DNA of 24,000 bases from Duganella sp. BJB476 (GTDB lineage: Bacteria > Pseudomonadota > Gammaproteobacteria > Burkholderiales > Burkholderiaceae_D), in NCBI RefSeq assembly GCF_003416895.1, contig NZ_QVIO01000011.1:824-24823 (forward strand), read 5' to 3'. The notes under the pieces were generated by a model. It searched no databases. It was not told the DNA's origin and was given only the letters and a program-made list of their open reading frames with translations. Position 1 is the first letter of the stretch; each line of letters starts with the position of its first letter. The position numbers and the translations under genes are program-made. Shown here in pieces: positions 2,831 to 15,105 of this stretch.

Positions 2831-3793
2831 ATGATGACCCACCGTCGATGCGCCCCCGCGCTGTCCGCCTTGCTGCTGGCCCTGTTGCTGTCCGCCTGTG
2901 GCGGCGGTGGTGGCGGCGGCGCGTCCTCCAGCGACAGCCCCAGCGTCGCACCGCCCGACTTGACCCAGGCGCCGGGCGCCCCCGTCTTCACCGGCAACAC
3001 CGCGCTCGACGGCTATAACTGGATCAACTACCGGCGCGCGCAGCTGGGCCTGTCCACCCTGGCGCGCAACGCCGGCATCGACGCCGCGGCCCAGGGCCAT
3101 TCCAACTACCAGCGCCTGAACAACACCGTCAGCCACGAGCAGACGCCCGGCCTGCCCGGCTTCACCGGCGCCACCCTGCTCGACCGCCTGACCAACGCCG
3201 GCTACCAGACCCCGCTGCCGTATGCGATCGGCGAAGTGATTTCCGCCACCAGCAACCCGTCCGGCTTTTACCAGGCGGAGGAATTGATCACCGCGATCTA
3301 CCACCGCTTCGTGATGTTCGAGCCGGTGTTCAAGGAAGTCGGCACCGGCGCCGCGACCACCAGCGCCAACTACACCTATTTCACCGCCGACCTGACCGCT
3401 GTCGGCGGCTACGGCGCCGGCCTGGGCGCGGGCCGCATCGTCAACTACCCGGCCGCCAACCAGAGCGGCGTGCCGGTCAACTTCTTCAGCGACAGCGAAT
3501 CGCCCGACCCGGTGCCGGGACGCAACGAGGTCGGCTATCCGATCAGCGTCCACGCCGACACCATCCGCGCCGGCGTCGGCGTGACGGTGCAAAACTTCAC
3601 GGTGGCGCCGCGCGGCGGCGCCACGCTGGACGTGCGCCTGCTCAGCCACGCCGTCGACGCCCTGACGCCCGAGACCGCCGCCGCCATCGTGCCGCTGGCG
3701 CCGCTCAAGAGCGCCACCGTCTACGACGTCAGCTTCAGCGGCTTGGTGGCCGGCGTGGCGGTGACGCGCAACTGGTCGTTCACCACCCGATGA
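2831..3793 (+). CDS. Lipoprotein with a CAP/SCP/PR-1-like domain and a C-terminal beta-rich domain
   Basis: SD AGGAG at 2821-2825. Signal peptide with lipobox LLSAC followed by a poly-Gly/Ser linker. The CAP-type segment reads NWINYRRAQLGLSTLARNAGIDAAAQGHSNY...SHEQ...GEVIS. Confidence 0.75.
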   Translation: MMTHRRCAPALSALLLALLLSACGGGGGGGASSSDSPSVAPPDLTQAPGAPVFTGNTALDGYNWINYRRAQLGLSTLARNAGIDAAAQGHSNYQRLNNTVSHEQTPGLPGFTGATLLDRLTNAGYQTPLPYAIGEVISATSNPSGFYQAEELITAIYHRFVMFEPVFKEVGTGAATTSANYTYFTADLTAVGGYGAGLGAGRIVNYPAANQSGVPVNFFSDSESPDPVPGRNEVGYPISVHADTIRAGVGVTVQNFTVAPRGGATLDVRLLSHAVDALTPETAAAIVPLAPLKSATVYDVSFSGLVAGVAVTRNWSFTTR

Positions 3794-4356
3794 ACGCGCC
3801 CGCCGCTGCCGTGCTGCATGTGGCCAGCGGGCTGCAACAGCTGATGGGTGACTACGCGCTGTACCTGAACATCGTGCGGCGCTTCCAGCAGCGCTACCAC
3901 GCGGCCGCGGCCGAGGTGGGCGCGGCGCTGGCGGCCGGCGACCGCGCCGACGCGGTGCGCATCGTCCACACCGTCAAGGGCGCGGCCGGCATGATCGGGG
4001 CGCAGCAGGTGCAGCAGCTGGCGGCCGCGCTGGAGGCGGCATCCTGCGCCGCGCCGCTGGCGCCGCTGGAGCAGGCGCTGGCGCAGCTGATGCAGGCAAT
4101 CGCCACGCTGCTGGCGGCCGAGGGCGCGCCGGACATCCCGGCCGCGCCGGCCCCGGCGGCGGACGCGCGCATGCTGGTGCAGCACCTGGCGCGGCTATTG
4201 GAGGAAGGCGATGGGGCGGCGATCGATGTGCTGGAACAGTCGGCCACAGTGCTGGCCGCCGCGCTGGGCGTGGCGCGCTTCGAGCGCGTGACGAGCGCGG
4301 CCCACCAGTTCGATTTCGAGACGGCGCTGGTGCAGCTGCGCGCAGACCCGGCCTGA
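3790..4356 (+). CDS. Stand-alone histidine phosphotransfer (Hpt) protein
   Basis: The start overlaps the upstream stop as ATGA (3790-3793). The Hpt layout is LQQLMGDYALYLNIVRRFQQ...GDRADAVRIVHTVKGAAGMIGA (HxxKG phospho-His motif). There is no TM or signal peptide. The C-terminal half is a second helical region ending FDFETALVQL. Confidence 0.8.
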   Translation: MNAPAAAVLHVASGLQQLMGDYALYLNIVRRFQQRYHAAAAEVGAALAAGDRADAVRIVHTVKGAAGMIGAQQVQQLAAALEAASCAAPLAPLEQALAQLMQAIATLLAAEGAPDIPAAPAPAADARMLVQHLARLLEEGDGAAIDVLEQSATVLAAALGVARFERVTSAAHQFDFETALVQLRADPA

Positions 4357-4917: not shown

Positions 4918-7101
4918 ATGACTTCCGCGCCTGCCCCGACCCGGCACCACGCTCCCGGCGTGCGCGCCAGTCTTGCGCTCCTGGCCATCGCTTGCATCTT
5001 GCCAGTCGTTGCCGTGACCGCTTTCCTGATCGTCCATTTCTACGACAGGGAGCGGACCCAGCTGATCGACAACACCGTCAGCCGCGCCCGCTCCATCATC
5101 ACCGCCACCGACCGCGACATCGAAAGCACCCAGCTGGCCTTGCAAACGCTGAGCACCTCGAACATGCTGCTCAACCAGGATTTGCGCGGCTTCCACCAGC
5201 GCGCCAGCGGCCTGGTGGAGAAGCTGGGCGCCGACAGCATCGTCCTGATCGGCACCGACGGCGCCCTGCTGCTGTCGACCCGCCGCCCCTGGGGCGCGCC
5301 GCTGGCCAAGCTGGGGCGGGCGCCGCTGCTGCAGCGCATCCTGGCCAGCGGCCGGCCGGGCGTGTCCGACATGTTCATCGGCCCGCTGTACGGGCGGCCC
5401 ATCTTCGTGGTCGGCGTGCCGGTGGTGCGGGCCGGCGTCATCGTCATGACGCTCAATGCCGTCTTCACGCCGCAGCGCCTGCAGCACGTGCTGACCGAGC
5501 AAAAACTGCCGGCCAACTGGCGCGCCAGCGTGCTCGACACCGAGGGCCGGGTGGCCACCCGCTCGCACGAGCAGGACACCTACGCCGGCCGCCAGGTCAG
5601 CGCCGAGCTGCGCCGGCAGATGGCCAGCGCCAGCGAGTCCGGCATGGCGACGCGCACGCTGGACGGGCAGGACGTCTACGTGGTCTACAGCCGCTCGACC
5701 CGCACCGGCTGGAGCGCCGTGCTGGGCATTCCAAGCGAGGAACTGACGGCCAGCCTGTACCGCACACTGGCCTGGCTGGTGTCGGTGACGCTCGCCGCGC
5801 TGGGCGCCGGCATGGCGCTGGCGTGGCTGCTGGGCGGGCGCATCGCCCGTTCGGTGCAGGCGCTGGTGGCGCCGGCGCGCGCGGTCGGCGCCGGCGCCAG
5901 CCTGGCGATCCCGCCGCTGCACTTCCGCGAAGCCAACCAGCTGGGACTGGCCTTGCGCGACGCCGCGCTCAGCGTGCGGCAAGCCCGCGCCGACATGCGC
6001 GAAAGCGAGCAGCGCCTGGCGCTGGCGGCCAACGCCGCCCACCTGGGCATCTGGACCCGAGAACTGAGCGACCAGCTGATCTGGTGCTCGGAGCAGTGGC
6101 GCGCGCTGTTCGGCTTCGCGCCGGAACAGCAGCTGACGCTGGCCGACCTGCTGGCCAAGGTGCACCCGGACGACCGCGCCGCCGTCCAGCACACCCTCAG
6201 CCACACCCGGCACGGCGCGCTGCGCTACGACATGGAATACCGGGTGCTGCTGGCCAGCGGCGAACAGCGCTGGATAGGTTCGCACGGCAGCATCGAGCAC
6301 GACGGGCAGGGCCGGCCGCTGCGGGTGCGCGGCGTGTCGCTCGACATCACCCAGCGCAAGCAGGCCGAGCTGGAGGTGCAGCAAAAGCAGAAGGAAGTCA
6401 CCCACCTGGCGCGGGTGGCCATGCTGGGCGAGCTGTCGGGCGCGCTGGCGCACGAGCTGAACCAGCCGCTGACGGCCATCCTCAGCAACGCCCAGGCGGC
6501 CCGCCGCTTCCTGGCCCAGCCGGCGCCCGACTTGGCCGAGGTGGCCGAGATCCTGGACGACATCGTCGACGAGGACAAGCGCGCCGGCGACATCATCCAA
6601 CGGCTGCGGCGCCTGTTCGGCAAGCAGGACACGCCGCACCAGCGGCTAGCCGCCGCCGAGCTGGTGGACGGCGTGATCCGCCTGGTGCGCAACGACCTGA
6701 TCCACCACGGCCTGACCGTGCGCACCGAGCTGGGCGAGGCGGCGCTGACGCTCAGCGCCGATCCGGTGCAGCTGCAGCAGGTGCTGATCAACCTGCTGAT
6801 GAACGCCTGCGACGCCCAGGCCGCGCAGGCGCACGCGGACGGCGTGATCGTGCTGCGCTGCGTGCGCGACGGCGACGCCGTGCAGTTCAGCGTGATCGAC
6901 CGCGGCGCCGGCATCGCGCCCGACGTCCTGGCGCGCATCTTCGATCCCTTCTACACCACCAAGGCGCGCGGCATGGGGCTGGGGCTGTCGATCTGCCGCA
7001 GCATCGCCACTGCCCACCACGGCACGCTGTGGGCGCACAACAACCCCGACGGCGGCGCCAGCTTCCACCTGCGCCTGCCGCTGGCCGAGGGTGCGCCATG
7101 A
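4918..7101 (+). CDS. Membrane sensor histidine kinase: TM, ~240-aa periplasmic Cache-like domain, TM, linker, PAS/PAC, HisKA, HATPase (FixL-type kinase core)
   Basis: 727 aa. TM1 is ASLALLAIACILPVVAVTAFLIV and TM2 is LAWLVSVTLAALGAGMALAWLLGG. PAS region: LGIWTRELSDQLIWCSEQW...YRVLLASGEQRWIGSHG. H-box: LSGALAHELNQPL (His at 6451-6453). ATP-lid boxes: NLLMNACDA, DRGAGI, GMGLGLS. Confidence 0.9.
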   Translation: MTSAPAPTRHHAPGVRASLALLAIACILPVVAVTAFLIVHFYDRERTQLIDNTVSRARSIITATDRDIESTQLALQTLSTSNMLLNQDLRGFHQRASGLVEKLGADSIVLIGTDGALLLSTRRPWGAPLAKLGRAPLLQRILASGRPGVSDMFIGPLYGRPIFVVGVPVVRAGVIVMTLNAVFTPQRLQHVLTEQKLPANWRASVLDTEGRVATRSHEQDTYAGRQVSAELRRQMASASESGMATRTLDGQDVYVVYSRSTRTGWSAVLGIPSEELTASLYRTLAWLVSVTLAALGAGMALAWLLGGRIARSVQALVAPARAVGAGASLAIPPLHFREANQLGLALRDAALSVRQARADMRESEQRLALAANAAHLGIWTRELSDQLIWCSEQWRALFGFAPEQQLTLADLLAKVHPDDRAAVQHTLSHTRHGALRYDMEYRVLLASGEQRWIGSHGSIEHDGQGRPLRVRGVSLDITQRKQAELEVQQKQKEVTHLARVAMLGELSGALAHELNQPLTAILSNAQAARRFLAQPAPDLAEVAEILDDIVDEDKRAGDIIQRLRRLFGKQDTPHQRLAAAELVDGVIRLVRNDLIHHGLTVRTELGEAALTLSADPVQLQQVLINLLMNACDAQAAQAHADGVIVLRCVRDGDAVQFSVIDRGAGIAPDVLARIFDPFYTTKARGMGLGLSICRSIATAHHGTLWAHNNPDGGASFHLRLPLAEGAP

Positions 7102-7712
7102 GCGGCGAACAAAGGGTGTTCCTGGTCGACGACCAGCCGGCCGTGCTGAAGGCGCTGGCGCGGCTGCTGGGCGCGGCCGGCTTCGCGGTGCAGCCCTACG
7201 CCAGCGCCCGCGCCTTCCTCGACGCGCTGGCGGCGGACGGCGCCGACGGTTGCCTGGTGCTGGACCTGTCGATGCCGGAGATGGACGGCCTGGCGCTGCA
7301 ACAGGCGCTGGCCGGGCGCGCCAGCACCCTGCCGATCATCTTCCTGACCGGCCACGGCGACATCGACACCGGCGTGCGCGCCATGAAACTGGGCGCGGCC
7401 GACTTCCTGACCAAGCCGGTCGACGACGAACGGCTGATCGCCGCCATCCACGCGGCGCTGGCCCAGCACCGCCAGGCGCGCAGCGCGGGCGCCGAGCTGG
7501 ACGAGATCCGCCAGCGGCTGGCCACGCTGACCCCGCGCGAAACCGAGGTGCTGCACCTGGTCATCGAAGGCTTGCTCAACAAGCAGGTGGCGGCCGCGCT
7601 GGGCACGGTGGAAAAGACCGTCAAGGTGCACCGCGCGCGCGTGATGGCGAAAATGCAAGTGCGCTCGGTGACGGCGCTGGTGCGCCTGGTCGACCGCGCG
7701 CGCCTGGGCTAG
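7098..7712 (+). CDS. Response regulator, REC + LuxR/GerE-type HTH (FixJ/NarL family)
   Basis: The real start is an internal ATG of the 959-aa track ORF and overlaps the kinase stop as ATGA (7098-7101). Motifs: VFLVDDQP, LVLDLSMPEMDG, IFLTGHGD, FLTKP, then LTPRETEVLHLVIEGLLNKQVAAALGTVEKTVKVHRARVMAKM. Confidence 0.9.
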   Translation: MSGEQRVFLVDDQPAVLKALARLLGAAGFAVQPYASARAFLDALAADGADGCLVLDLSMPEMDGLALQQALAGRASTLPIIFLTGHGDIDTGVRAMKLGAADFLTKPVDDERLIAAIHAALAQHRQARSAGAELDEIRQRLATLTPRETEVLHLVIEGLLNKQVAAALGTVEKTVKVHRARVMAKMQVRSVTALVRLVDRARLG

Positions 7713-7779: not shown

Positions 7780-8184
7780 ATGGATACCTCACTTCCCTGG
7801 GTGGCTGTAGTAGACGACGACGACGCGATACGGCGCGCGCTGCTGCGCCTGCTGCGTTCCAGCGGCATCGCCGCGCAAGCGTTTGCCGGCGGCGCCGACT
7901 TCCTGGCCGCGCTCGACGGCGGCCATCCGTGCTGCGTGGTGCTGGACGTGCACATGCCGGGCCTGTCCGGGCTGGAGGTGCAGGCGCGGCTGGCCGCGCT
8001 GGCGCCCGAGGTCGGCGTCATCATCCTCACCGGCCACCCGACTCCGGCCGAACAGGCGCAGGCGCAACAACACCGGCCGCTGGCCTACCTGAGCAAACCC
8101 GTCAACGATCAACTGTTACTGGACACCATCAGCCTGGCCTGCGGCCAGTCGGCGGCGCCCTTCACCGGAGGCCCACGGCCATGA
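7780..8184 (+). CDS. Single-domain response regulator (REC only)
   Basis: 134 aa. Motifs VAVVDDDD, VVLDVHMPGLSG, IILTGH and LSKP show that all phospho-acceptor pocket residues are present. There is no output domain. Confidence 0.85.
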   Translation: MDTSLPWVAVVDDDDAIRRALLRLLRSSGIAAQAFAGGADFLAALDGGHPCCVVLDVHMPGLSGLEVQARLAALAPEVGVIILTGHPTPAEQAQAQQHRPLAYLSKPVNDQLLLDTISLACGQSAAPFTGGPRP

Positions 8185-10337
8185 ACCCGACCACCCCACT
8201 GCACGCCGCCAAGATCCTGCTCGTCGACGACCAGCCGGTCAACCTGACGCTGCTCGAACACGTGCTGGCCAGCGCCGGCTACACCGACGTCAGCAGCACC
8301 AGCGACGCGCCGGCGGTGGCCGCCATGCACCGCCTGCATCACTACGACCTGATCGTGCTGGACCTGAACATGCCGGGCATGGACGGCTTCGAGGTGCTCG
8401 ACAGCCTGCGCCAGATCGAGGCCGAGCAATACCTGCCGGTGCTGGTGGTGTCCGCCGAGCCGGACTACAAGCTGCGCGCGCTCAAGGCCGGCGCCAAGGA
8501 CTTCCTGTGCAAGCCCTATGACTACGACGAGCTGCTGTCGCGCATCCGCAATATGCTGGAAGTGCGGCTGCTCTACACCCGCAGCCGCAACTACGGGCTG
8601 CGCATGGCCGGCCACGACCACCTGACCGGCCTGCCGAACCGCCAGCTGTTCGCGCAGACCATGGTGCCGCAGCTGGCGGCGGCCTGGCCGCGCGCCAGCG
8701 CCCTGCTGCTGGTCGACCTGGACGGCTTCACCGCCATCAACGACAGCCAGGGCCACGCCGCCGGCGACGCCCTGCTGTGCCAGTTCGCCCGGCGCCTGAA
8801 CCTGCTGTCGCCGCCGCACGCCACCCTCGGCCGCCTGGGCAACGACGAATTCGCGCTGCTGCTGCCGGCCGAGCTGCAACAGGCCGGCGCGGTCTCCGAC
8901 CAGATCCGCGAGGCGCTGCTGCAGCCGTTCAACCTGCCCGGCGGCCAGACCACGATCACCGTCAGCATCGGCATCGCCGCCTGCCCGTCCGACATCGACG
9001 ACGTCGGCACGCTGCTGCGCTACGCCGACATCGCCCTGCACCAGGCCAAGCAGGAGGGGCGCGACCACTGCTGCTATTTCACCGACGCCATGGACCTGCA
9101 AGCGCAGACGCGCTACCAGCTGGAGCACGCGCTGCGCCATGCCAGCGAGCGCGGCGAGTTCGAACTGTACTACCAGCCCAAGGTGCAGATCGGCACCGGC
9201 CGCATGGTCGGCGCCGAAGCGCTGCTGCGCTGGAACCGGCCCGGCCACGGCCTGGTGTCGCCGGCCGAGTTCATCCCGCTGCTCGAGCGCAGCGGCCTGA
9301 TCGTGCCGGTCGGCGCCTGGGCCATCGACCAGGCCTGCCGCCAGATCGCCGCTTGGGCGCCGCACGCCAACGGCCCGCTGCCGATCGCCGTCAACGTCGC
9401 CAGCCGCCAGTTCGCCGACGCCAAACTGGAGCAGACCGTGGCCGAGGCCATCGCCCGCCACGGCATCGACCCCGCCCTGCTGTCGCTGGAAGTGACCGAG
9501 AGCGCGATGATGGACGACATCGGCCGCACCGCCGCCACCCTGAGCGCGCTGCGCGCGAGCGGGGTGCATATCGCCATCGACGACTTCGGCACCGGCTATT
9601 CCAGTCTGGCCTACCTGAAGCGCTTCCCGGTCGACACGCTGAAGATCGACATCGCCTTCATCCGCGAAGTGACCAGCAGTCCCGACGACGCCGCCGTGGT
9701 GGACGCCATCATCGCCATGGCGCACAGCCTGAAGCTGGAGGTGGTGGCCGAGGGCGTGGAGACGGCGGCCCAGCTGGCCTACCTGGGGCGCCACCGCTGC
9801 GACCAGATCCAGGGCTACTACTACAGCCGGCCGCTGCCGGCGGCGCAGCTGGAACAACTGTTGCGCGACGACGTCCGCCTGCGCCTGCCGAACGACGCCG
9901 GCGACGCCCCCGAGCGCACCTTGCTGATCATCGACGACGAGCCGCACATGCTGACCTCCCTGCAGCGCCTGCTGCGCCAGGACGGCTACCGCGTGCTGAC
10001 CGCCAACGGCGCGGCCCAGGCCTTCGCGCTGCTGGCGCAATACCCGGTGCAGCTGGTGCTGTGCGACCAGCGCATGGAGGAAATGAGCGGCACCGAACTG
10101 CTCGACAAGATCAAGCAGATGTACCCGGACACCTTCCGCATCATCCTGTCCGGCTACACCGACCTGAACACCATCATGGAATCGATCAACCGCGGCGCCC
10201 TGTACCGCTTCTACACCAAGCCCTGGGACAACCGCACCTTGCGCAGCAATATCGAGGCCGCCTTCCGCCACTACTGGCAGTTGCACGGCCTGCAGGAACC
10301 GGCGGCGCCGCAGCTGGCCATGGCCGCGGGAGGCTGA
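8181..10337 (+). CDS. c-di-GMP phosphodiesterase-type protein with two receivers: REC, degenerate GGDEF (GNDEF), EAL, REC
   Basis: The real start is the internal ATG at 8181, which overlaps the upstream stop as ATGA; 718 aa. REC1: LLVDDQP, VLDLNMPGMDG (D61), LCKP. GGDEF domain: LTGLPNR...GNDEF (8838-8852). EAL domain: YYQPKV, EALLR (9216-9224), DDFGTGYSSL, EGVE, QGYYYSRP. REC2 (~9915-10274): IIDDEP, VLCDQRMEEMSG (D629), ILSGY, YTKPW. Confidence 0.9.
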   Translation: MNPTTPLHAAKILLVDDQPVNLTLLEHVLASAGYTDVSSTSDAPAVAAMHRLHHYDLIVLDLNMPGMDGFEVLDSLRQIEAEQYLPVLVVSAEPDYKLRALKAGAKDFLCKPYDYDELLSRIRNMLEVRLLYTRSRNYGLRMAGHDHLTGLPNRQLFAQTMVPQLAAAWPRASALLLVDLDGFTAINDSQGHAAGDALLCQFARRLNLLSPPHATLGRLGNDEFALLLPAELQQAGAVSDQIREALLQPFNLPGGQTTITVSIGIAACPSDIDDVGTLLRYADIALHQAKQEGRDHCCYFTDAMDLQAQTRYQLEHALRHASERGEFELYYQPKVQIGTGRMVGAEALLRWNRPGHGLVSPAEFIPLLERSGLIVPVGAWAIDQACRQIAAWAPHANGPLPIAVNVASRQFADAKLEQTVAEAIARHGIDPALLSLEVTESAMMDDIGRTAATLSALRASGVHIAIDDFGTGYSSLAYLKRFPVDTLKIDIAFIREVTSSPDDAAVVDAIIAMAHSLKLEVVAEGVETAAQLAYLGRHRCDQIQGYYYSRPLPAAQLEQLLRDDVRLRLPNDAGDAPERTLLIIDDEPHMLTSLQRLLRQDGYRVLTANGAAQAFALLAQYPVQLVLCDQRMEEMSGTELLDKIKQMYPDTFRIILSGYTDLNTIMESINRGALYRFYTKPWDNRTLRSNIEAAFRHYWQLHGLQEPAAPQLAMAAGG

Positions 10338-10338
10338 C

Positions 10339-11259
<921 letters not shown>

Positions 11260-11277: not shown

Positions 11278-12236
11278 ATGCATTGCTTGACCACTACCCG
11301 CCGCATCGCCCTGCTGTGCCTGGCCGCCGGCCTGGCCGCCGCGCCGGCCGCGCCGGCCGGCGAGCCGATCACGCCGGTGCCGCTGAGCTTGCACCAGGAC
11401 CCGGCCAAGGCCGCGCTGGGCCGGCGCCTGTTCAACGACGTCCGGCTGTCGGGCAACAGCAGCGTCTCGTGCGCCAGCTGCCACAACGTCGCGCGCGGCG
11501 GCGGCGACCAGCGCGCCAAATCGCTCGGCTTCCTGGGCAAGCCGGGCGCCGTCAACACGCCCACCGTGCTCAACGCCGCGCTCAACTTCAAGCAATTCTG
11601 GGACGGCCGCGCCGACACGCTGGAAGCCCAGCTCGACATGGTGATCCGCAATCCGATCGAGATGGGGTCGTCGTGGGAGAGCGTGCTGGCCAAGCTGGCG
11701 GGCGACGCCGCCTACCGCGACGGCTTCGCGGAGGCTTACCGCGACGGCCTGACCATCGCCAACCTGCGCCATGCCATCGTCAGCTACGAACGCACGCTGA
11801 TCACTCCCAACGCCCGCTTCGACCAGTACCTGCGCGGCGACCGCAACGCCATCACGGCGGCGGAAAAGACCGGCTACGCCAAGTTCAAGCAGTTCGGCTG
11901 CGTGGCCTGCCACCAGGGCGTCAACGTCGGCGGCAATATGTTCCAGAAATTCGGCGTCATGGGCGACTACTTCGCCCAGCGCGGCGGCATCAACGAAGCC
12001 GACCGCGGCCGTTACGCCGTCACCCACAATCCCGACGACCTGCACGTGTTCAAGGTGCCCAGCCTGCGCAACGTGACGCGCAGCGCGCCGTATTTCCACG
12101 ACGGCTCGGCCGCCACGCTGGAGCAGGCGATCGACGTCATGTTCAAGTTCCAGCTGGGACGCAGCGGCAGCAAGCAGGACAAGGCCGACATCATCCAGTT
12201 CCTCAATACGCTCAACAGCACACCGGCGGGGCAGCC

Positions 12237-12240
<4 letters not shown>
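11278..12240 (+). CDS. Exported di-haem cytochrome c peroxidase (bacterial CCP/MauG family)
   Basis: SD AGGAG at 11267-11271. Sec-type signal peptide. There are two CxxCH motifs: CASCH (11470-11484) and CVACH (11899-11913). Family landmarks: FWDGRA, NPIEMG, FKVPSLRNV, PYFHDGS. Confidence 0.88.
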
Positions 12241-14033
<1,793 letters not shown>

Positions 14034-14115: not shown

Positions 14116-15105
14116 ATGCAAGCAAACACCACCGTCACCCCGCCTGCCGCCGGCAGCCACGCCCACCTGTCCGGGCGCGTGCTCGGGCTGGCCAACCTGG
14201 GCCTGATGGTGCTCGACGCCAGCGGCCGCATCGTCATGTGGAACCAGTGGCTGGCCAGCCATTCCGGCCTGTCCGCCCACCGCGTGCAGGGCAGCGACCT
14301 GTTCGAGCAATTCCCCGAGCTGCGCGGCCAGCGGCTGGAGCAGGCGGTGCAGAGCGCGATGCAGAGCAACCTCCCGCAGCAACTGTCGCCGGCGCTGAAC
14401 CGCTCGCCCTTCCCGCTGTACCCGACCGGCACCTGGGGCGGCGAACGGGTCGAGCAGGCGGTGTCGGTCACGCCTTTCACCGAGGGCAAGGAGCGCTACT
14501 GCCTGATCGAGGTGAGCGATATCAGCACCACCGTCGGCCGCGAGCGCCAGCTGCGCGGCCAGGCCGAGGCGCTGCGCGCGCAATCGTATGTGGACGGCCT
14601 GACCGGCATCGCCAACCGCCGCCACTTCGACGTCGCGCTGGACCGCGAGCTGCGCCGGGCGCAGCGCAACAACGGCCAGCTGTCGCTGCTGCTGATGGAC
14701 ATCGATTCCTTCAAGGCCTATAACGACCACTTCGGCCACCAGCAGGGCGACGCCTGCCTGACCCTGGTAGCGGAAGCCTTCGCCGCCATGCTGCAACGCC
14801 CGGCCGACCTGGCCGCGCGCTACGGCGGCGAGGAGTTCGCCGCCGTGCTGCCGGACACCGGCCCGGAACAGGCGGCCCAGCTCGCCGAAACGATCCGCGC
14901 CCGCATCGCCGCGCTGGAGATCACGCACGCGCCCGCCGCCATCCGCCCGCATGTGACCATGAGCATCGGCGTGGCCACCTACGACAAGGACCGCTTGTGT
15001 GACGCCGCCACCATGCTGGCCGCCGCCGACAGCTGCCTGTACGCCGCCAAGCGCGCCGGCCGCGACTGCGTGATCGTCGACCGTCCGGCGGAAAACGCCG
15101 CCTGA
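14116..15105 (+). CDS. Diguanylate cyclase, PAS + GGDEF with intact active site and I-site
   Basis: 329 aa. PAS region: LGLMVLDASGRIVMWNQWLASHSGL. GGDEF domain: LTGIANRRHFD, MDIDSFKAYND. RPAD sits 5 residues before GGEEF (14797-14838). Confidence 0.9.
   Translation: MQANTTVTPPAAGSHAHLSGRVLGLANLGLMVLDASGRIVMWNQWLASHSGLSAHRVQGSDLFEQFPELRGQRLEQAVQSAMQSNLPQQLSPALNRSPFPLYPTGTWGGERVEQAVSVTPFTEGKERYCLIEVSDISTTVGRERQLRGQAEALRAQSYVDGLTGIANRRHFDVALDRELRRAQRNNGQLSLLLMDIDSFKAYNDHFGHQQGDACLTLVAEAFAAMLQRPADLAARYGGEEFAAVLPDTGPEQAAQLAETIRARIAALEITHAPAAIRPHVTMSIGVATYDKDRLCDAATMLAAADSCLYAAKRAGRDCVIVDRPAENAA

What the first reader, a model, noticed from the sequence alone, without database searches (positions are those of the whole stretch)
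8181..10337. Dual-receiver phosphodiesterase: REC at both ends of a GNDEF-EAL core
Seen: both receivers keep the acidic pair, the phospho-Asp (D61 and D629), the Ser/Thr position and the Lys (LCKP and YTKPW). The GGDEF signature is degenerate (GNDEF, 8838-8852) and has no RxxD I-site five residues upstream. The EAL motifs EALLR, DDFGTGYSSL, EGVE and QGYY are intact. Known: degenerate GGDEF domains can act as GTP-binding allosteric modules for a fused EAL domain (Caulobacter PdeA). Inference: this is a phosphodiesterase that integrates two independent phosphorylation inputs as a logic gate, matching the two kinases encoded immediately downstream. A C-terminal receiver after EAL is, by my recollection, an uncommon arrangement.
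Basis: partly seen in the sequence, partly recalled or inferred. Interest (0 to 1): 0.6.

Follow-up and report, generated by a model that had tools for sequence, protein, structure and literature searches.

The report
PdeR/RavR-type phosphodiesterase with extra receiver
This gene encodes an enzyme that probably degrades the bacterial signal c-di-GMP and carries a phosphorylation switch at each end; the tail switch belongs to a known Xanthomonas enzyme type (PdeR/RavR), so only the extra front switch is unusual.

Summary

- A receiver after EAL is not rare. It occurs in 5 of this genome's 40 EAL ORFs, in all 119 genomes of the genus, and in about 5% of 400 sampled Pseudomonadota genomes. It is also the studied Xanthomonas PdeR/RavR architecture.
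- Residues 159-698 are collinear (40% identity) with a Stenotrophomonas RavR/PdeR-like protein.
- The two downstream kinases are paralogues, 50% identical in their transmitter cores. They belong to the same transmitter family as the kinase beside that Stenotrophomonas protein (52%).
- The sensorless kinase (HK2) occurs in only 6 of 24 orthologous loci, whereas both receivers are ancestral.
- Kinases of this family lie near EAL-REC genes in 11 of 19 loci from other taxa. Six of seven distant CCP/DAHL-kinase loci are followed by a receiver of the C-terminal type.

Both downstream kinases therefore probably feed the C-terminal receiver. The N-terminal receiver's donor is unresolved. Natural variants lacking either receiver exist.

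Verdict: a new variant of a known kind, of moderate interest. The scan has noted GGDEF-EAL-REC on other DNA before (e1-757005).

The parts
8181..10337 (+). Gene for the 718-aa REC-GGDEF(GNDEF)-EAL-REC protein (P0001)
   Evidence: ORF and translation; Pfam domains; 66 other 90%-identity clusters with the same architecture.
8214..8549 (+). N-terminal receiver (aa 12-123; DD16-17, D61, S91, K111)
   Evidence: Pfam Response_reg 12-123. The residues are invariant in orthologues. Together with the GGDEF domain it is collinear with the Rec-GGDEF cyclases DgcR, PleD and WspR.
8523..8609 (+). Continuous helix (aa 115-143) joining the N-terminal receiver to GGDEF
   Evidence: AlphaFold2 model m96a20a409675, helix H115-143, pLDDT about 77-89.
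8610..9065 (+). Degenerate GGDEF domain (aa 144-295); GNDEF at nt 8838-8852; no RxxD I-site
   Evidence: Pfam GGDEF. Motif census: GNDEF in 33 of 67 family members, GGDEF in 18. The REC-PAS paralogues keep GGDEF (15 of 16) and an RIRD I-site (14 of 16).
9129..9833 (+). EAL phosphodiesterase domain (aa 317-551) with all catalytic motifs
   Evidence: Pfam EAL E 1.3e-75. Motifs invariant in 24 orthologues. The model matches the EAL domains of MorA, MucR and BifA at TM 0.93-0.95.
9867..9917 (+). Low-confidence linker (aa 563-579) between EAL and the C-terminal receiver
   Evidence: AlphaFold2: the 571-580 block has mean pLDDT 61, and 573-575 are below 50.
9918..10286 (+). C-terminal receiver (aa 580-702; DD585-586, D629, S657, K680; signature DDE..CDQRM..MSG..LSGY..TKPW)
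   Evidence: Hits at 579-698 to the HupR receiver 2jk1, REC-HD-GYP receivers 2rjn and 3hv2, and NCBIfam NosR-family REC. The signature is kept in 17 of 19 EAL-REC proteins from other taxa. It is the most conserved domain among orthologues.
10339..11259 (+). HK2: 306-aa sensorless HisKA-HATPase kinase, paralogue of the DAHL kinase transmitter
   Evidence: Pfam. 50% identity to DAHL kinase aa 330-593. 52% identity to the kinase next to the Stenotrophomonas RavR/PdeR-like gene. Present in only 6 of 24 orthologous loci.
11278..12240 (+). Di-haem cytochrome c peroxidase (CCP/MauG-type), overlaps the start of the DAHL kinase gene
   Evidence: Pfam CCP_MauG E 4.5e-56. CCP lies upstream of the DAHL kinase in 5 of 7 distant loci.
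12237..14033 (+). Membrane DAHL-domain histidine kinase, proposed donor to the C-terminal receiver
   Evidence: Pfam DAHL + HisKA + HATPase. In 6 of 7 distant loci the kinase is followed at once by a receiver that scores best against the C-terminal receiver.
7780..8184 (+). Single-domain receiver (134 aa), translationally coupled to the phosphodiesterase gene
   Evidence: Pfam Response_reg. FixJ-receiver-like. Precedes the gene in every locus of types A, A2, B and C.
4918..7101 (+). HK1: dCache-PAS-HisKA-HATPase kinase (FixL-like), candidate donor to the N-terminal receiver
   Evidence: Pfam, NCBIfam FixL-like. Conserved upstream in types A, A2, B and C.
7098..7712 (+). REC-LuxR (FixJ-like) response regulator
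   Evidence: Pfam Response_reg + GerE; NCBIfam FixJ 209.7 bits.
3790..4356 (+). Stand-alone Hpt protein
   Evidence: Pfam Hpt. Detected in all A, B and C loci and in one A2 locus (L061), not in the other A2 loci.
14116..15105 (+). PAS-GGDEF diguanylate cyclase closing the cassette
   Evidence: Pfam GGDEF E 4.8e-49 + PAS. Retained next to the phosphodiesterase gene in types A, B and C.

Best explanation
The protein is a c-di-GMP-specific EAL phosphodiesterase of the PdeR/RavR type: a catalytically dead GGDEF, an active EAL and a C-terminal receiver. In this Oxalobacteraceae lineage it carries an additional N-terminal receiver.

Shown:
- the domain order;
- an intact EAL catalytic set;
- a degenerate GGDEF (GNDEF) without an I-site;
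- two receivers with conserved phospho-acceptor residues;
- collinear homology of aa 159-698 with a Xanthomonadaceae RavR/PdeR-like protein;
- homology of both downstream kinases to the kinase beside that protein.

Inferred:
- The C-terminal receiver takes phosphate from the PdeK/RavA-type transmitters encoded downstream. These are the periplasmic CCP-coupled DAHL sensor kinase and its sensorless paralogue HK2. The cassette would then couple a periplasmic redox or peroxide cue to c-di-GMP turnover.
- The N-terminal receiver is joined to the GGDEF domain by one continuous helix, as in Rec-GGDEF cyclases such as DgcR. It would bring in a second, separate input, most plausibly from the upstream FixL-like kinase HK1, directly or through the single receiver and Hpt. 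It would act by re-setting the GGDEF/EAL dimer geometry.
- The dead GGDEF probably still binds GTP as an allosteric or scaffold element.

Whether C-terminal phosphorylation changes catalysis (as reported for PdeK/PdeR) or mainly drains phosphate from the kinases (as reported for RavS/RavR) cannot be decided from sequence.
For: - Domains and motifs.
- Core fold: matches PA0575 (5m3c, solved with GTP), MorA, MucR and DosP.
- Homology to the known type: P0001 159-698 aligns with Stenotrophomonas P0122 26-565 at 40% identity with 4 gaps. In P0122 and in a Pseudoxanthomonas homologue the receiver Asp is residue 496 from the annotated start, the same number as RavR Asp496 (PMC6707612). PdeR is described as GGDEF/EAL/REC (PMC6637768).
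- Kinases: HK2 is 52% identical to the kinase beside P0122 and 50% to the DAHL kinase core, against 29% to HK1.
- Neighbourhood: 11 of 19 EAL-REC loci outside the genus have a kinase core at least 43% identical within 8 kb. About a quarter of sampled genomes hold 1-3 copies of such a kinase, so my rough chance estimate is about 1% per locus.
- Receiver type: 6 of 7 distant DAHL-kinase loci have a receiver directly after the kinase that scores 82-103 bits against the C-terminal receiver, at most 53 against the N-terminal one and at most 37 against the single receiver.
- Ancestry: the dual receiver is ancestral, because the outgroup REC-PAS-GGDEF-EAL-REC paralogues also have both.
- N-terminal half: REC plus GGDEF is collinear with DgcR, PleD and WspR, and the model gives helix 115-143.
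- Operon: no + strand terminator-like site between 3600 and 15400, and the genes overlap or abut.
Against: - No biochemical data exist for this protein.
- The natural variants do not settle the wiring. Type C lost the C-terminal receiver together with CCP and the DAHL kinase, but in one contiguous deletion. Type B lost the downstream kinases and the N-terminal receiver while keeping the C-terminal one.
- Eighteen of 119 genomes of the genus lack this kinase family at E <= 1e-55. Thirteen of them, outside the type C clade, still hold 1-5 EAL-REC proteins. The pairing is therefore not obligatory.
- The four receivers of the locus are only 24-37% identical to each other, and the DHp positions I compared do not discriminate partners.
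- In RavR, phosphorylation did not alter PDE activity in vitro (PMC6707612).
- That the Xanthomonadaceae comparators are RavR/PdeR orthologues is inferred from residue numbering and taxonomy, not from the RavR sequence itself.
- GTP binding by the GNDEF domain is inferred only from conserved residues.
Confidence: 0.6

Rival explanations
1. One reading: each of the two downstream kinases (HK2 and the DAHL kinase) feeds a different receiver, so the enzyme is a two-input gate for those two kinases.
For: Two kinases and two receivers lie in one translationally coupled cassette. HK2 starts 1 nt after the phosphodiesterase stop codon.
Against: HK2 is a sensorless paralogue of the DAHL kinase transmitter (50% identity), so it has no independent sensor. 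HK2 is present in only 6 of 24 orthologous loci and was gained once, while both receivers predate it. The transmitter family co-localises with the C-terminal receiver type, not the N-terminal one. In Xanthomonas, two kinases converge on the single RavR receiver (PMC6707612).
Confidence: 0.1
2. One receiver, most likely the C-terminal one, does not regulate catalysis. It acts as a phosphate sink or docking module that sets the phosphorylation level of its kinases, while the EAL domain works constitutively or under GTP and N-terminal receiver control.
For: For RavR the literature reports that phosphorylation leaves PDE activity unchanged in vitro and that the receiver acts as a phosphate sink for RavS (PMC6707612). 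The C-terminal receiver hangs on a low-confidence 17-residue linker. It is more conserved than the catalytic core (for example 81% against 64% in L063), as expected for a domain that must fit several kinases.
Against: For the Xanthomonas oryzae orthologue PdeR, the kinase PdeK is reported to trigger PDE activity (PMC6637768). The type B variants keep the C-terminal receiver at 78-85% identity although the adjacent kinases are gone. Two remote family members do remain in those genomes.
Confidence: 0.2
3. The protein is bifunctional: the GNDEF domain still makes c-di-GMP, and the receivers switch it between cyclase and phosphodiesterase modes, as proposed for Legionella Lpl0329.
For: Eighteen of 67 members of the same family keep GGDEF, and the REC-PAS sister family keeps GGDEF plus an RxxD site.
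Against: In this protein and in 20 of its 23 genus orthologues the second Gly is Asn (3 others carry Asp, Asp or Ala), and the I-site is absent. From general knowledge of GGDEF enzymes, substitutions in GG(D/E)EF other than D/E abolish cyclase activity. Loss of product inhibition together with the motif change fits a domain that no longer makes product.
Confidence: 0.05

Closest known systems
PdeR (Xanthomonas oryzae) and RavR (X. campestris), with kinases PdeK/RavA and RavS
   Same: The order degenerate GGDEF - EAL - C-terminal receiver. Collinear 40% identity over 540 residues with a Stenotrophomonas RavR/PdeR-like protein, and 56-59% in the receiver. A neighbouring kinase of the same transmitter family (52%). 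More than one kinase in the locus.
   Different: This protein has an extra N-terminal receiver joined by a helix to the GGDEF domain. Its kinase is a CCP-coupled periplasmic DAHL sensor plus a sensorless duplicate, not RavA/PdeK and the PAS kinase RavS. It is not an orthologue: the EAL identity is about 41%, and the core's best matches are MorA and PA0575.
Rec-GGDEF cyclases DgcR, PleD and WspR
   Same: The N-terminal receiver, linker helix and GGDEF domain (aa 6-296) align end to end with DgcR (6zxc) and with PleD's second receiver plus GGDEF. A coiled-coil register mechanism is described for DgcR (PMC8041772).
   Different: The GGDEF domain here is catalytically degenerate and is followed by EAL and a second receiver. 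The output would be control of a phosphodiesterase, not of synthesis.
GTP-regulated tandem GGDEF-EAL phosphodiesterases (Caulobacter PdeA/CC3396, P. aeruginosa PA0575/RmcA, MorA)
   Same: Tandem GGDEF-EAL core at 44% identity. The model superposes on PA0575 GGDEF-EAL solved with GTP (TM 0.81). The guanine-contacting Asn and Asp are conserved.
   Different: Those proteins use PAS or membrane sensors and have no receiver domains. GTP binding is not tested here.
Receiver-EAL response regulators RocR, PvrR and VieA
   Same: Phospho-receiver control of an EAL phosphodiesterase within a two-component system.
   Different: They have a single N-terminal receiver directly before EAL, with no GGDEF and no C-terminal receiver.
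Dual-sensor Rec-LOV-GGDEF cyclases (LaRldC)
   Same: One c-di-GMP enzyme integrating two inputs. Gate-like (OR) behaviour was measured experimentally (PMC13501900).
   Different: The inputs there are phosphorylation and light acting on a cyclase. Here two phosphorylation sites flank a phosphodiesterase, and nothing has been measured.

Membership tests
Catalytically active EAL c-di-GMP phosphodiesterases | EAL domain with the metal- and substrate-binding residues (EALxR Glu and Arg, Asn, ExxE, DD of DDFG, KxD Lys, EGVE, QG) and an intact loop 6 DFG(T/A)GYSS | tested here: met
   Pfam EAL 254 bits. E346, R350, N405, E437/E440, D467-D468, K488, E524/E527, Q544 and DDFGTGYSSL are present. These motifs are unchanged in all 24 orthologues, and the key catalytic residues are invariant or at least 90% conserved across 83 family members.
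Catalytically active EAL c-di-GMP phosphodiesterases | Hydrolysis of c-di-GMP to pGpG | not testable with these tools
   Needs an enzyme assay.
Active GGDEF diguanylate cyclases | GG(D/E)EF active-site motif | tested here: not met
   GNDEF at aa 220-224. Among the 23 genus orthologues: GNDEF 20, GDDEF 2, GADEF 1, GGDEF 1.
Active GGDEF diguanylate cyclases | RxxD inhibitory site five residues upstream of the motif (common, not universal) | tested here: not met
   PPHA at aa 211-214. The sister REC-PAS family has RIRD in 14 of 16 members.
PdeR/RavR-type GGDEF-EAL-REC response regulators | Domain order GGDEF-EAL-receiver with the phospho-Asp in the C-terminal domain | tested here: met
   PdeR is described as GGDEF/EAL/REC (PMC6637768) and RavR's phospho-Asp is Asp496 (PMC6707612).
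PdeR/RavR-type GGDEF-EAL-REC response regulators | Sequence homology across the whole GGDEF-EAL-REC unit to Xanthomonadaceae members | tested here: met
   40% identity, 4 gaps, aa 159-698 against 26-565 of Stenotrophomonas P0122. That P0122 is a RavR/PdeR orthologue is inferred from Asp496 numbering and taxonomy. The X. campestris and X. oryzae sequences themselves were not compared.
PdeR/RavR-type GGDEF-EAL-REC response regulators | Adjacent cognate kinase of the PdeK/RavA transmitter type | tested here: met
   HK2 is 52% identical to the kinase beside P0122 and the DAHL kinase core 51-54%. Kinases of this family lie near 11 of 19 EAL-REC loci.
PdeR/RavR-type GGDEF-EAL-REC response regulators | Phosphotransfer from that kinase to the C-terminal Asp | not testable with these tools
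   Needs an in vitro phosphotransfer assay.
Phosphorylatable response-regulator receivers (both domains) | Acidic pair, phospho-Asp, Thr/Ser and Lys at the canonical positions | tested here: met
   N-terminal: DD16-17, D61, S91, K111. C-terminal: DD585-586, D629, S657, K680. Each is conserved in 81-83 of 83 sequences, except DD585-586 in 75 of 83.
GTP-activated phosphodiesterases with a degenerate GGDEF (PdeA/CC3396, PA0575 type) | The degenerate GGDEF domain retains GTP binding, which raises EAL activity | tested here: inconclusive
   N187, D196 and R218 are invariant and D181, G220, E223 and F224 nearly so. The fold matches GTP-bound PA0575. Binding and activation were not measured.

The most novel reading that the evidence does not exclude
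The enzyme is a true two-channel integrator. The C-terminal receiver reports the periplasmic CCP/DAHL (redox or peroxide) sensor. The N-terminal receiver reports the FixL-like dCache-PAS kinase through a Spo0-like relay (single receiver plus Hpt). The two phosphorylations act through different physical routes, namely a coiled-coil register at the GGDEF end and dimerisation or kinase docking at the EAL end, to give gate-like control of c-di-GMP hydrolysis. Nature would then have supplied the single-input controls, in the type B (no N-terminal receiver) and type C (no C-terminal receiver) variants.
Probability: 0.2. Interest if true: 0.6.

Novelty: new variant of a known kind. Interest (0 to 1): 0.35.

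Why it matters
How single c-di-GMP enzymes combine several inputs is still largely untested. One measured case is a Rec-LOV-GGDEF cyclase (PMC13501900).

This family offers a phosphodiesterase with two conserved phospho-sites of different receiver lineages. It also offers a defined candidate kinase set in the same operon, and natural one-receiver deletion variants in sister species. Together these make the question approachable with ordinary biochemistry.

The family also bears on a disagreement in the PdeR/RavR literature, where the C-terminal receiver is reported either to activate the enzyme or to act as a phosphate sink.

The finding is not a new principle. Receiver-controlled GGDEF-EAL phosphodiesterases, including ones with the receiver after EAL, are already known.

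Tried and rejected
1. I first assumed the short homologues (P0029, P0036; 79% coverage) lacked the C-terminal receiver and that this receiver travelled with the kinase module. blastn showed the opposite. They lack the N-terminal receiver (window 8208-8606) and separately lack HK2-CCP-DAHL, with remnants of the DAHL kinase gene left behind.

2. Wiring from receiver similarity or DHp positions gave nothing. The four receivers are 24-37% identical pairwise, and the positions H+7, H+11 and H+12 that I compared are alike in all three kinases.

3. Genus-wide co-occurrence of EAL-REC proteins with the kinase family is suggestive for the type C clade (0 kinases, 1 EAL-REC each). It is not general: 13 further genomes lack the family yet hold 1-5 EAL-REC proteins. 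I do not use it as evidence.

4. The AlphaFold2 model gave secondary structure and confidence only. Coordinates and PAE were not available, so packing of the C-terminal receiver against EAL could not be judged.

5. Foldseek against the PDB returned no listed chain that matched the model beyond the GGDEF-EAL core, and none with a receiver after EAL.

6. Literal searches for 'REC-GGDEF-EAL-REC' and 'GGDEF-EAL-REC' found no paper, and 'EAL-REC' found only unrelated text. The PdeR/RavR link came from reading PMC6707612 and PMC6637768.

7. An assembly or frameshift artefact fusing a receiver to the enzyme is rejected. The fusion is conserved in 17 genus orthologues and in 66 other clusters.
Full report
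**Observation.** window:8181-10337 (+) is one open frame of 718 codons. Its ATG overlaps the stop of the preceding 134-aa receiver gene, and the next gene starts 1 nt after its stop. Pfam finds EAL (317-551, E 1.3e-75), GGDEF (144-295, E 3.3e-35) and Response_reg with two stretches (E 6.7e-52). PDB and NCBIfam hits place the second receiver at about 579-698. PPHA occupies the I-site position.

**Surroundings.** The gene lies in a run of + strand signalling genes with no terminator-like site on that strand between 3600 and 15400. In order they are:

| Gene | Coordinates |
|---|---|
| Hpt | 3790-4356 |
| FixL-like dCache-PAS kinase HK1 | 4918-7101 |
| FixJ-like REC-LuxR regulator | 7098-7712 |
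| single receiver | 7780-8184 |
| this protein | 8181-10337 |
| sensorless 306-aa kinase HK2 | 10339-11259 |
| di-haem peroxidase CCP | 11278-12240 |
| membrane DAHL-domain kinase | 12237-14033 |
| PAS-GGDEF cyclase | 14116-15105 |

By the names of the best protein hits the organism is an Oxalobacteraceae of the Duganella group (93% identity to a Duganella violaceipulchra protein).

**How common is the architecture?** Among the 120 best homologue clusters, 66 share REC-GGDEF-EAL-REC and 50 are REC-PAS-GGDEF-EAL-REC.
- This genome has 40 EAL ORFs. Five carry a receiver after EAL, and three of those also carry one or more N-terminal receivers (neighbours).
- All 119 genomes of the genus hold at least one EAL-REC protein, 424 matches in total.
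- In an even sample of 400 genomes of the phylum, 19 hold a contiguous EAL-REC match.
- In 17 of 19 such proteins from other taxa the receiver keeps the signature DDE..(S/C)DQRM..MSG..LSGY..TKPW.

The tail receiver is therefore the hallmark of an old X-GGDEF-EAL-REC family, not an oddity of this gene.

**Link to characterised proteins.** A review describes Xanthomonas oryzae PdeR as a 'GGDEF/EAL/REC' regulator whose PDE activity is triggered by its kinase PdeK. PdeK is 95.7% identical to the kinase next to RavR in X. campestris (PMC6637768). RavR is phosphorylated on Asp496 by both RavA and RavS. In that study phosphorylation did not change PDE activity in vitro, and the receiver acted as a phosphate sink for RavS (PMC6707612).

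Two of my sampled EAL-REC proteins come from Stenotrophomonas and Pseudoxanthomonas. Both have the receiver Asp at residue 496 of the annotated protein, so I take them to be RavR/PdeR orthologues. This is an inference. P0001 residues 159-698 align with the Stenotrophomonas protein 26-565 at 40% identity with four gaps. HK2 is 52% identical to the kinase encoded beside it.

**The two downstream kinases.** HK2 aligns with the DAHL kinase transmitter (aa 330-593) at 50% identity, against 29% with HK1. I mapped 24 orthologous loci in the genus, counting the window.
- HK2 is present in only six of them.
- On a tree rooted with the REC-PAS paralogues it appears once, inside a clade whose ancestor already had both receivers.

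The pair of kinases therefore cannot explain the pair of receivers.

**Which receiver do they serve?**
- Of 19 EAL-REC loci outside the genus, 11 have a kinase core at least 43% identical to HK2/DAHL within 8 kb. The core is often fused to a receiver of the C-terminal type.
- Roughly a quarter of sampled genomes of the class carry 1-3 such kinases, so I estimate chance adjacency at about 1% per locus.
- In seven distant loci with full-length DAHL kinases, five have CCP upstream. Six have a receiver directly after the kinase that scores 82-103 bits against the C-terminal receiver, at most 53 against the N-terminal one and at most 37 against the single receiver.

This points to the C-terminal receiver as the cognate type for the CCP/DAHL kinase and its paralogue. 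The donor to the N-terminal receiver is unresolved. The FixL/FixJ-like set upstream is conserved in types A, A2, B and C but absent from the two basal loci.

**Natural variants.**
- *Type B* (two species). The N-terminal receiver is deleted precisely and in frame, and HK2-CCP-DAHL are lost, with fragments of the DAHL kinase gene remaining. The C-terminal receiver stays 78-85% identical, and two remote kinases of the family remain in those genomes.
- *Type C* (five species). One contiguous deletion removed the C-terminal receiver, CCP and the DAHL kinase. These genomes have no kinase of the family at E <= 1e-40.
- Both types are nested among full-length forms. Each receiver is thus separately dispensable, but the two cases point in opposite directions for wiring and I do not lean on them.
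- Genus-wide co-occurrence is not strict.

**Catalytic domains.** The EAL motifs are unchanged in all orthologues. The GGDEF motif is GNDEF in 33 of 67 family members and GGDEF in 18. The REC-PAS sister family keeps GGDEF (15 of 16) and an RIRD I-site (14 of 16). The degeneration is therefore specific to this clade. Conserved N187, D196 and R218, and a model that superposes on GTP-bound PA0575 GGDEF-EAL (TM 0.81), make a retained GTP-binding role plausible but unproven. The work on GTP-dependent control in PA0575 is cited in PMC10874727.

**Structure model.** The AlphaFold2 model has mean pLDDT 86.3 and pTM 0.64. It shows a continuous helix 115-143 from the N-terminal receiver into GGDEF, as in DgcR (PMC8041772). 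It also shows a low-confidence linker 563-579 before the C-terminal receiver. Interdomain packing could not be examined.

**Verdict.** The protein is best described as a PdeR/RavR-type phosphodiesterase with an added N-terminal receiver, coupled here to a CCP/DAHL sensor kinase. It is a new variant of a known kind, of moderate interest. Earlier notes of this scan had seen the CCP/DAHL pairing (e1-2480583), the HK2 paralogy (e1-2480582) and a GGDEF-EAL-REC protein on other DNA (e1-757005).

Noticed in passing
window:10339-11259: HK2 is a sensorless duplicate of the DAHL kinase transmitter (50% identity). It is present in only 6 of 24 orthologous loci and was gained once. Its H-, N- and G-box-like motifs look intact by eye (AHEINNP, NLVVNAAHA, DTGSGI, GTGLGL). 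What a kinase without a sensor does next to its sensing paralogue is open; a heterodimer partner, a phosphatase or an amplifier are all possible.
   Followed up: partly
L066 (= L001) and L069; L074-L078: Sister species carry natural single-receiver versions of the enzyme. Type B has a precise in-frame loss of the N-terminal receiver plus loss of HK2-CCP-DAHL, with a 51-nt remnant of the DAHL kinase gene. Type C has one deletion from the EAL-receiver linker to the end of the DAHL kinase gene. Both clades sit on long branches (0.26 and 0.31).
   Followed up: yes
L082 (G000:C21:626333-642144): The same genome has an EAL-REC protein without GGDEF (558 aa). It is followed by an HDOD protein and flanked by two further kinases of the HK2/DAHL transmitter family (57% and 55%). 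Type B genomes keep the counterparts of this kinase pair.
   Followed up: partly
L080 (G000:C21:609800-627500) and L081 (G000:C11:674865-692167): Two more paralogues. One is a 1219-aa REC-REC-X-GGDEF-EAL-REC protein directly after a PAS-PAS kinase. The other is a 1098-aa X-GGDEF-EAL-REC protein followed by a REC-HisKA-HATPase kinase, an NMT1-type binding protein and a HAMP-GAF hybrid kinase.
   Followed up: partly
L106, L108, L109, L110, L112: In distant Gammaproteobacteria the regulator encoded after CCP and the DAHL kinase is a receiver of the C-terminal type, followed by roughly 200 or more residues that match no Pfam family. This may be an undescribed output domain.
   Followed up: no
window:9918-10286 versus the rest of the gene: The C-terminal receiver is the most conserved part of the protein among orthologues. 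For example, N-terminal receiver, core and C-terminal receiver are 59/64/81% in L063 and 51/55/73% in L073. It is more conserved than the catalytic EAL core.
   Followed up: partly
L079 (G000:C30:337055-353853): The REC-PAS-GGDEF-EAL-REC sister gene keeps GGDEF and an RxxD site and appears to be present in most genomes of the genus. It stands alone between cinA-like and thiL-like genes, with no kinase nearby.
   Followed up: partly
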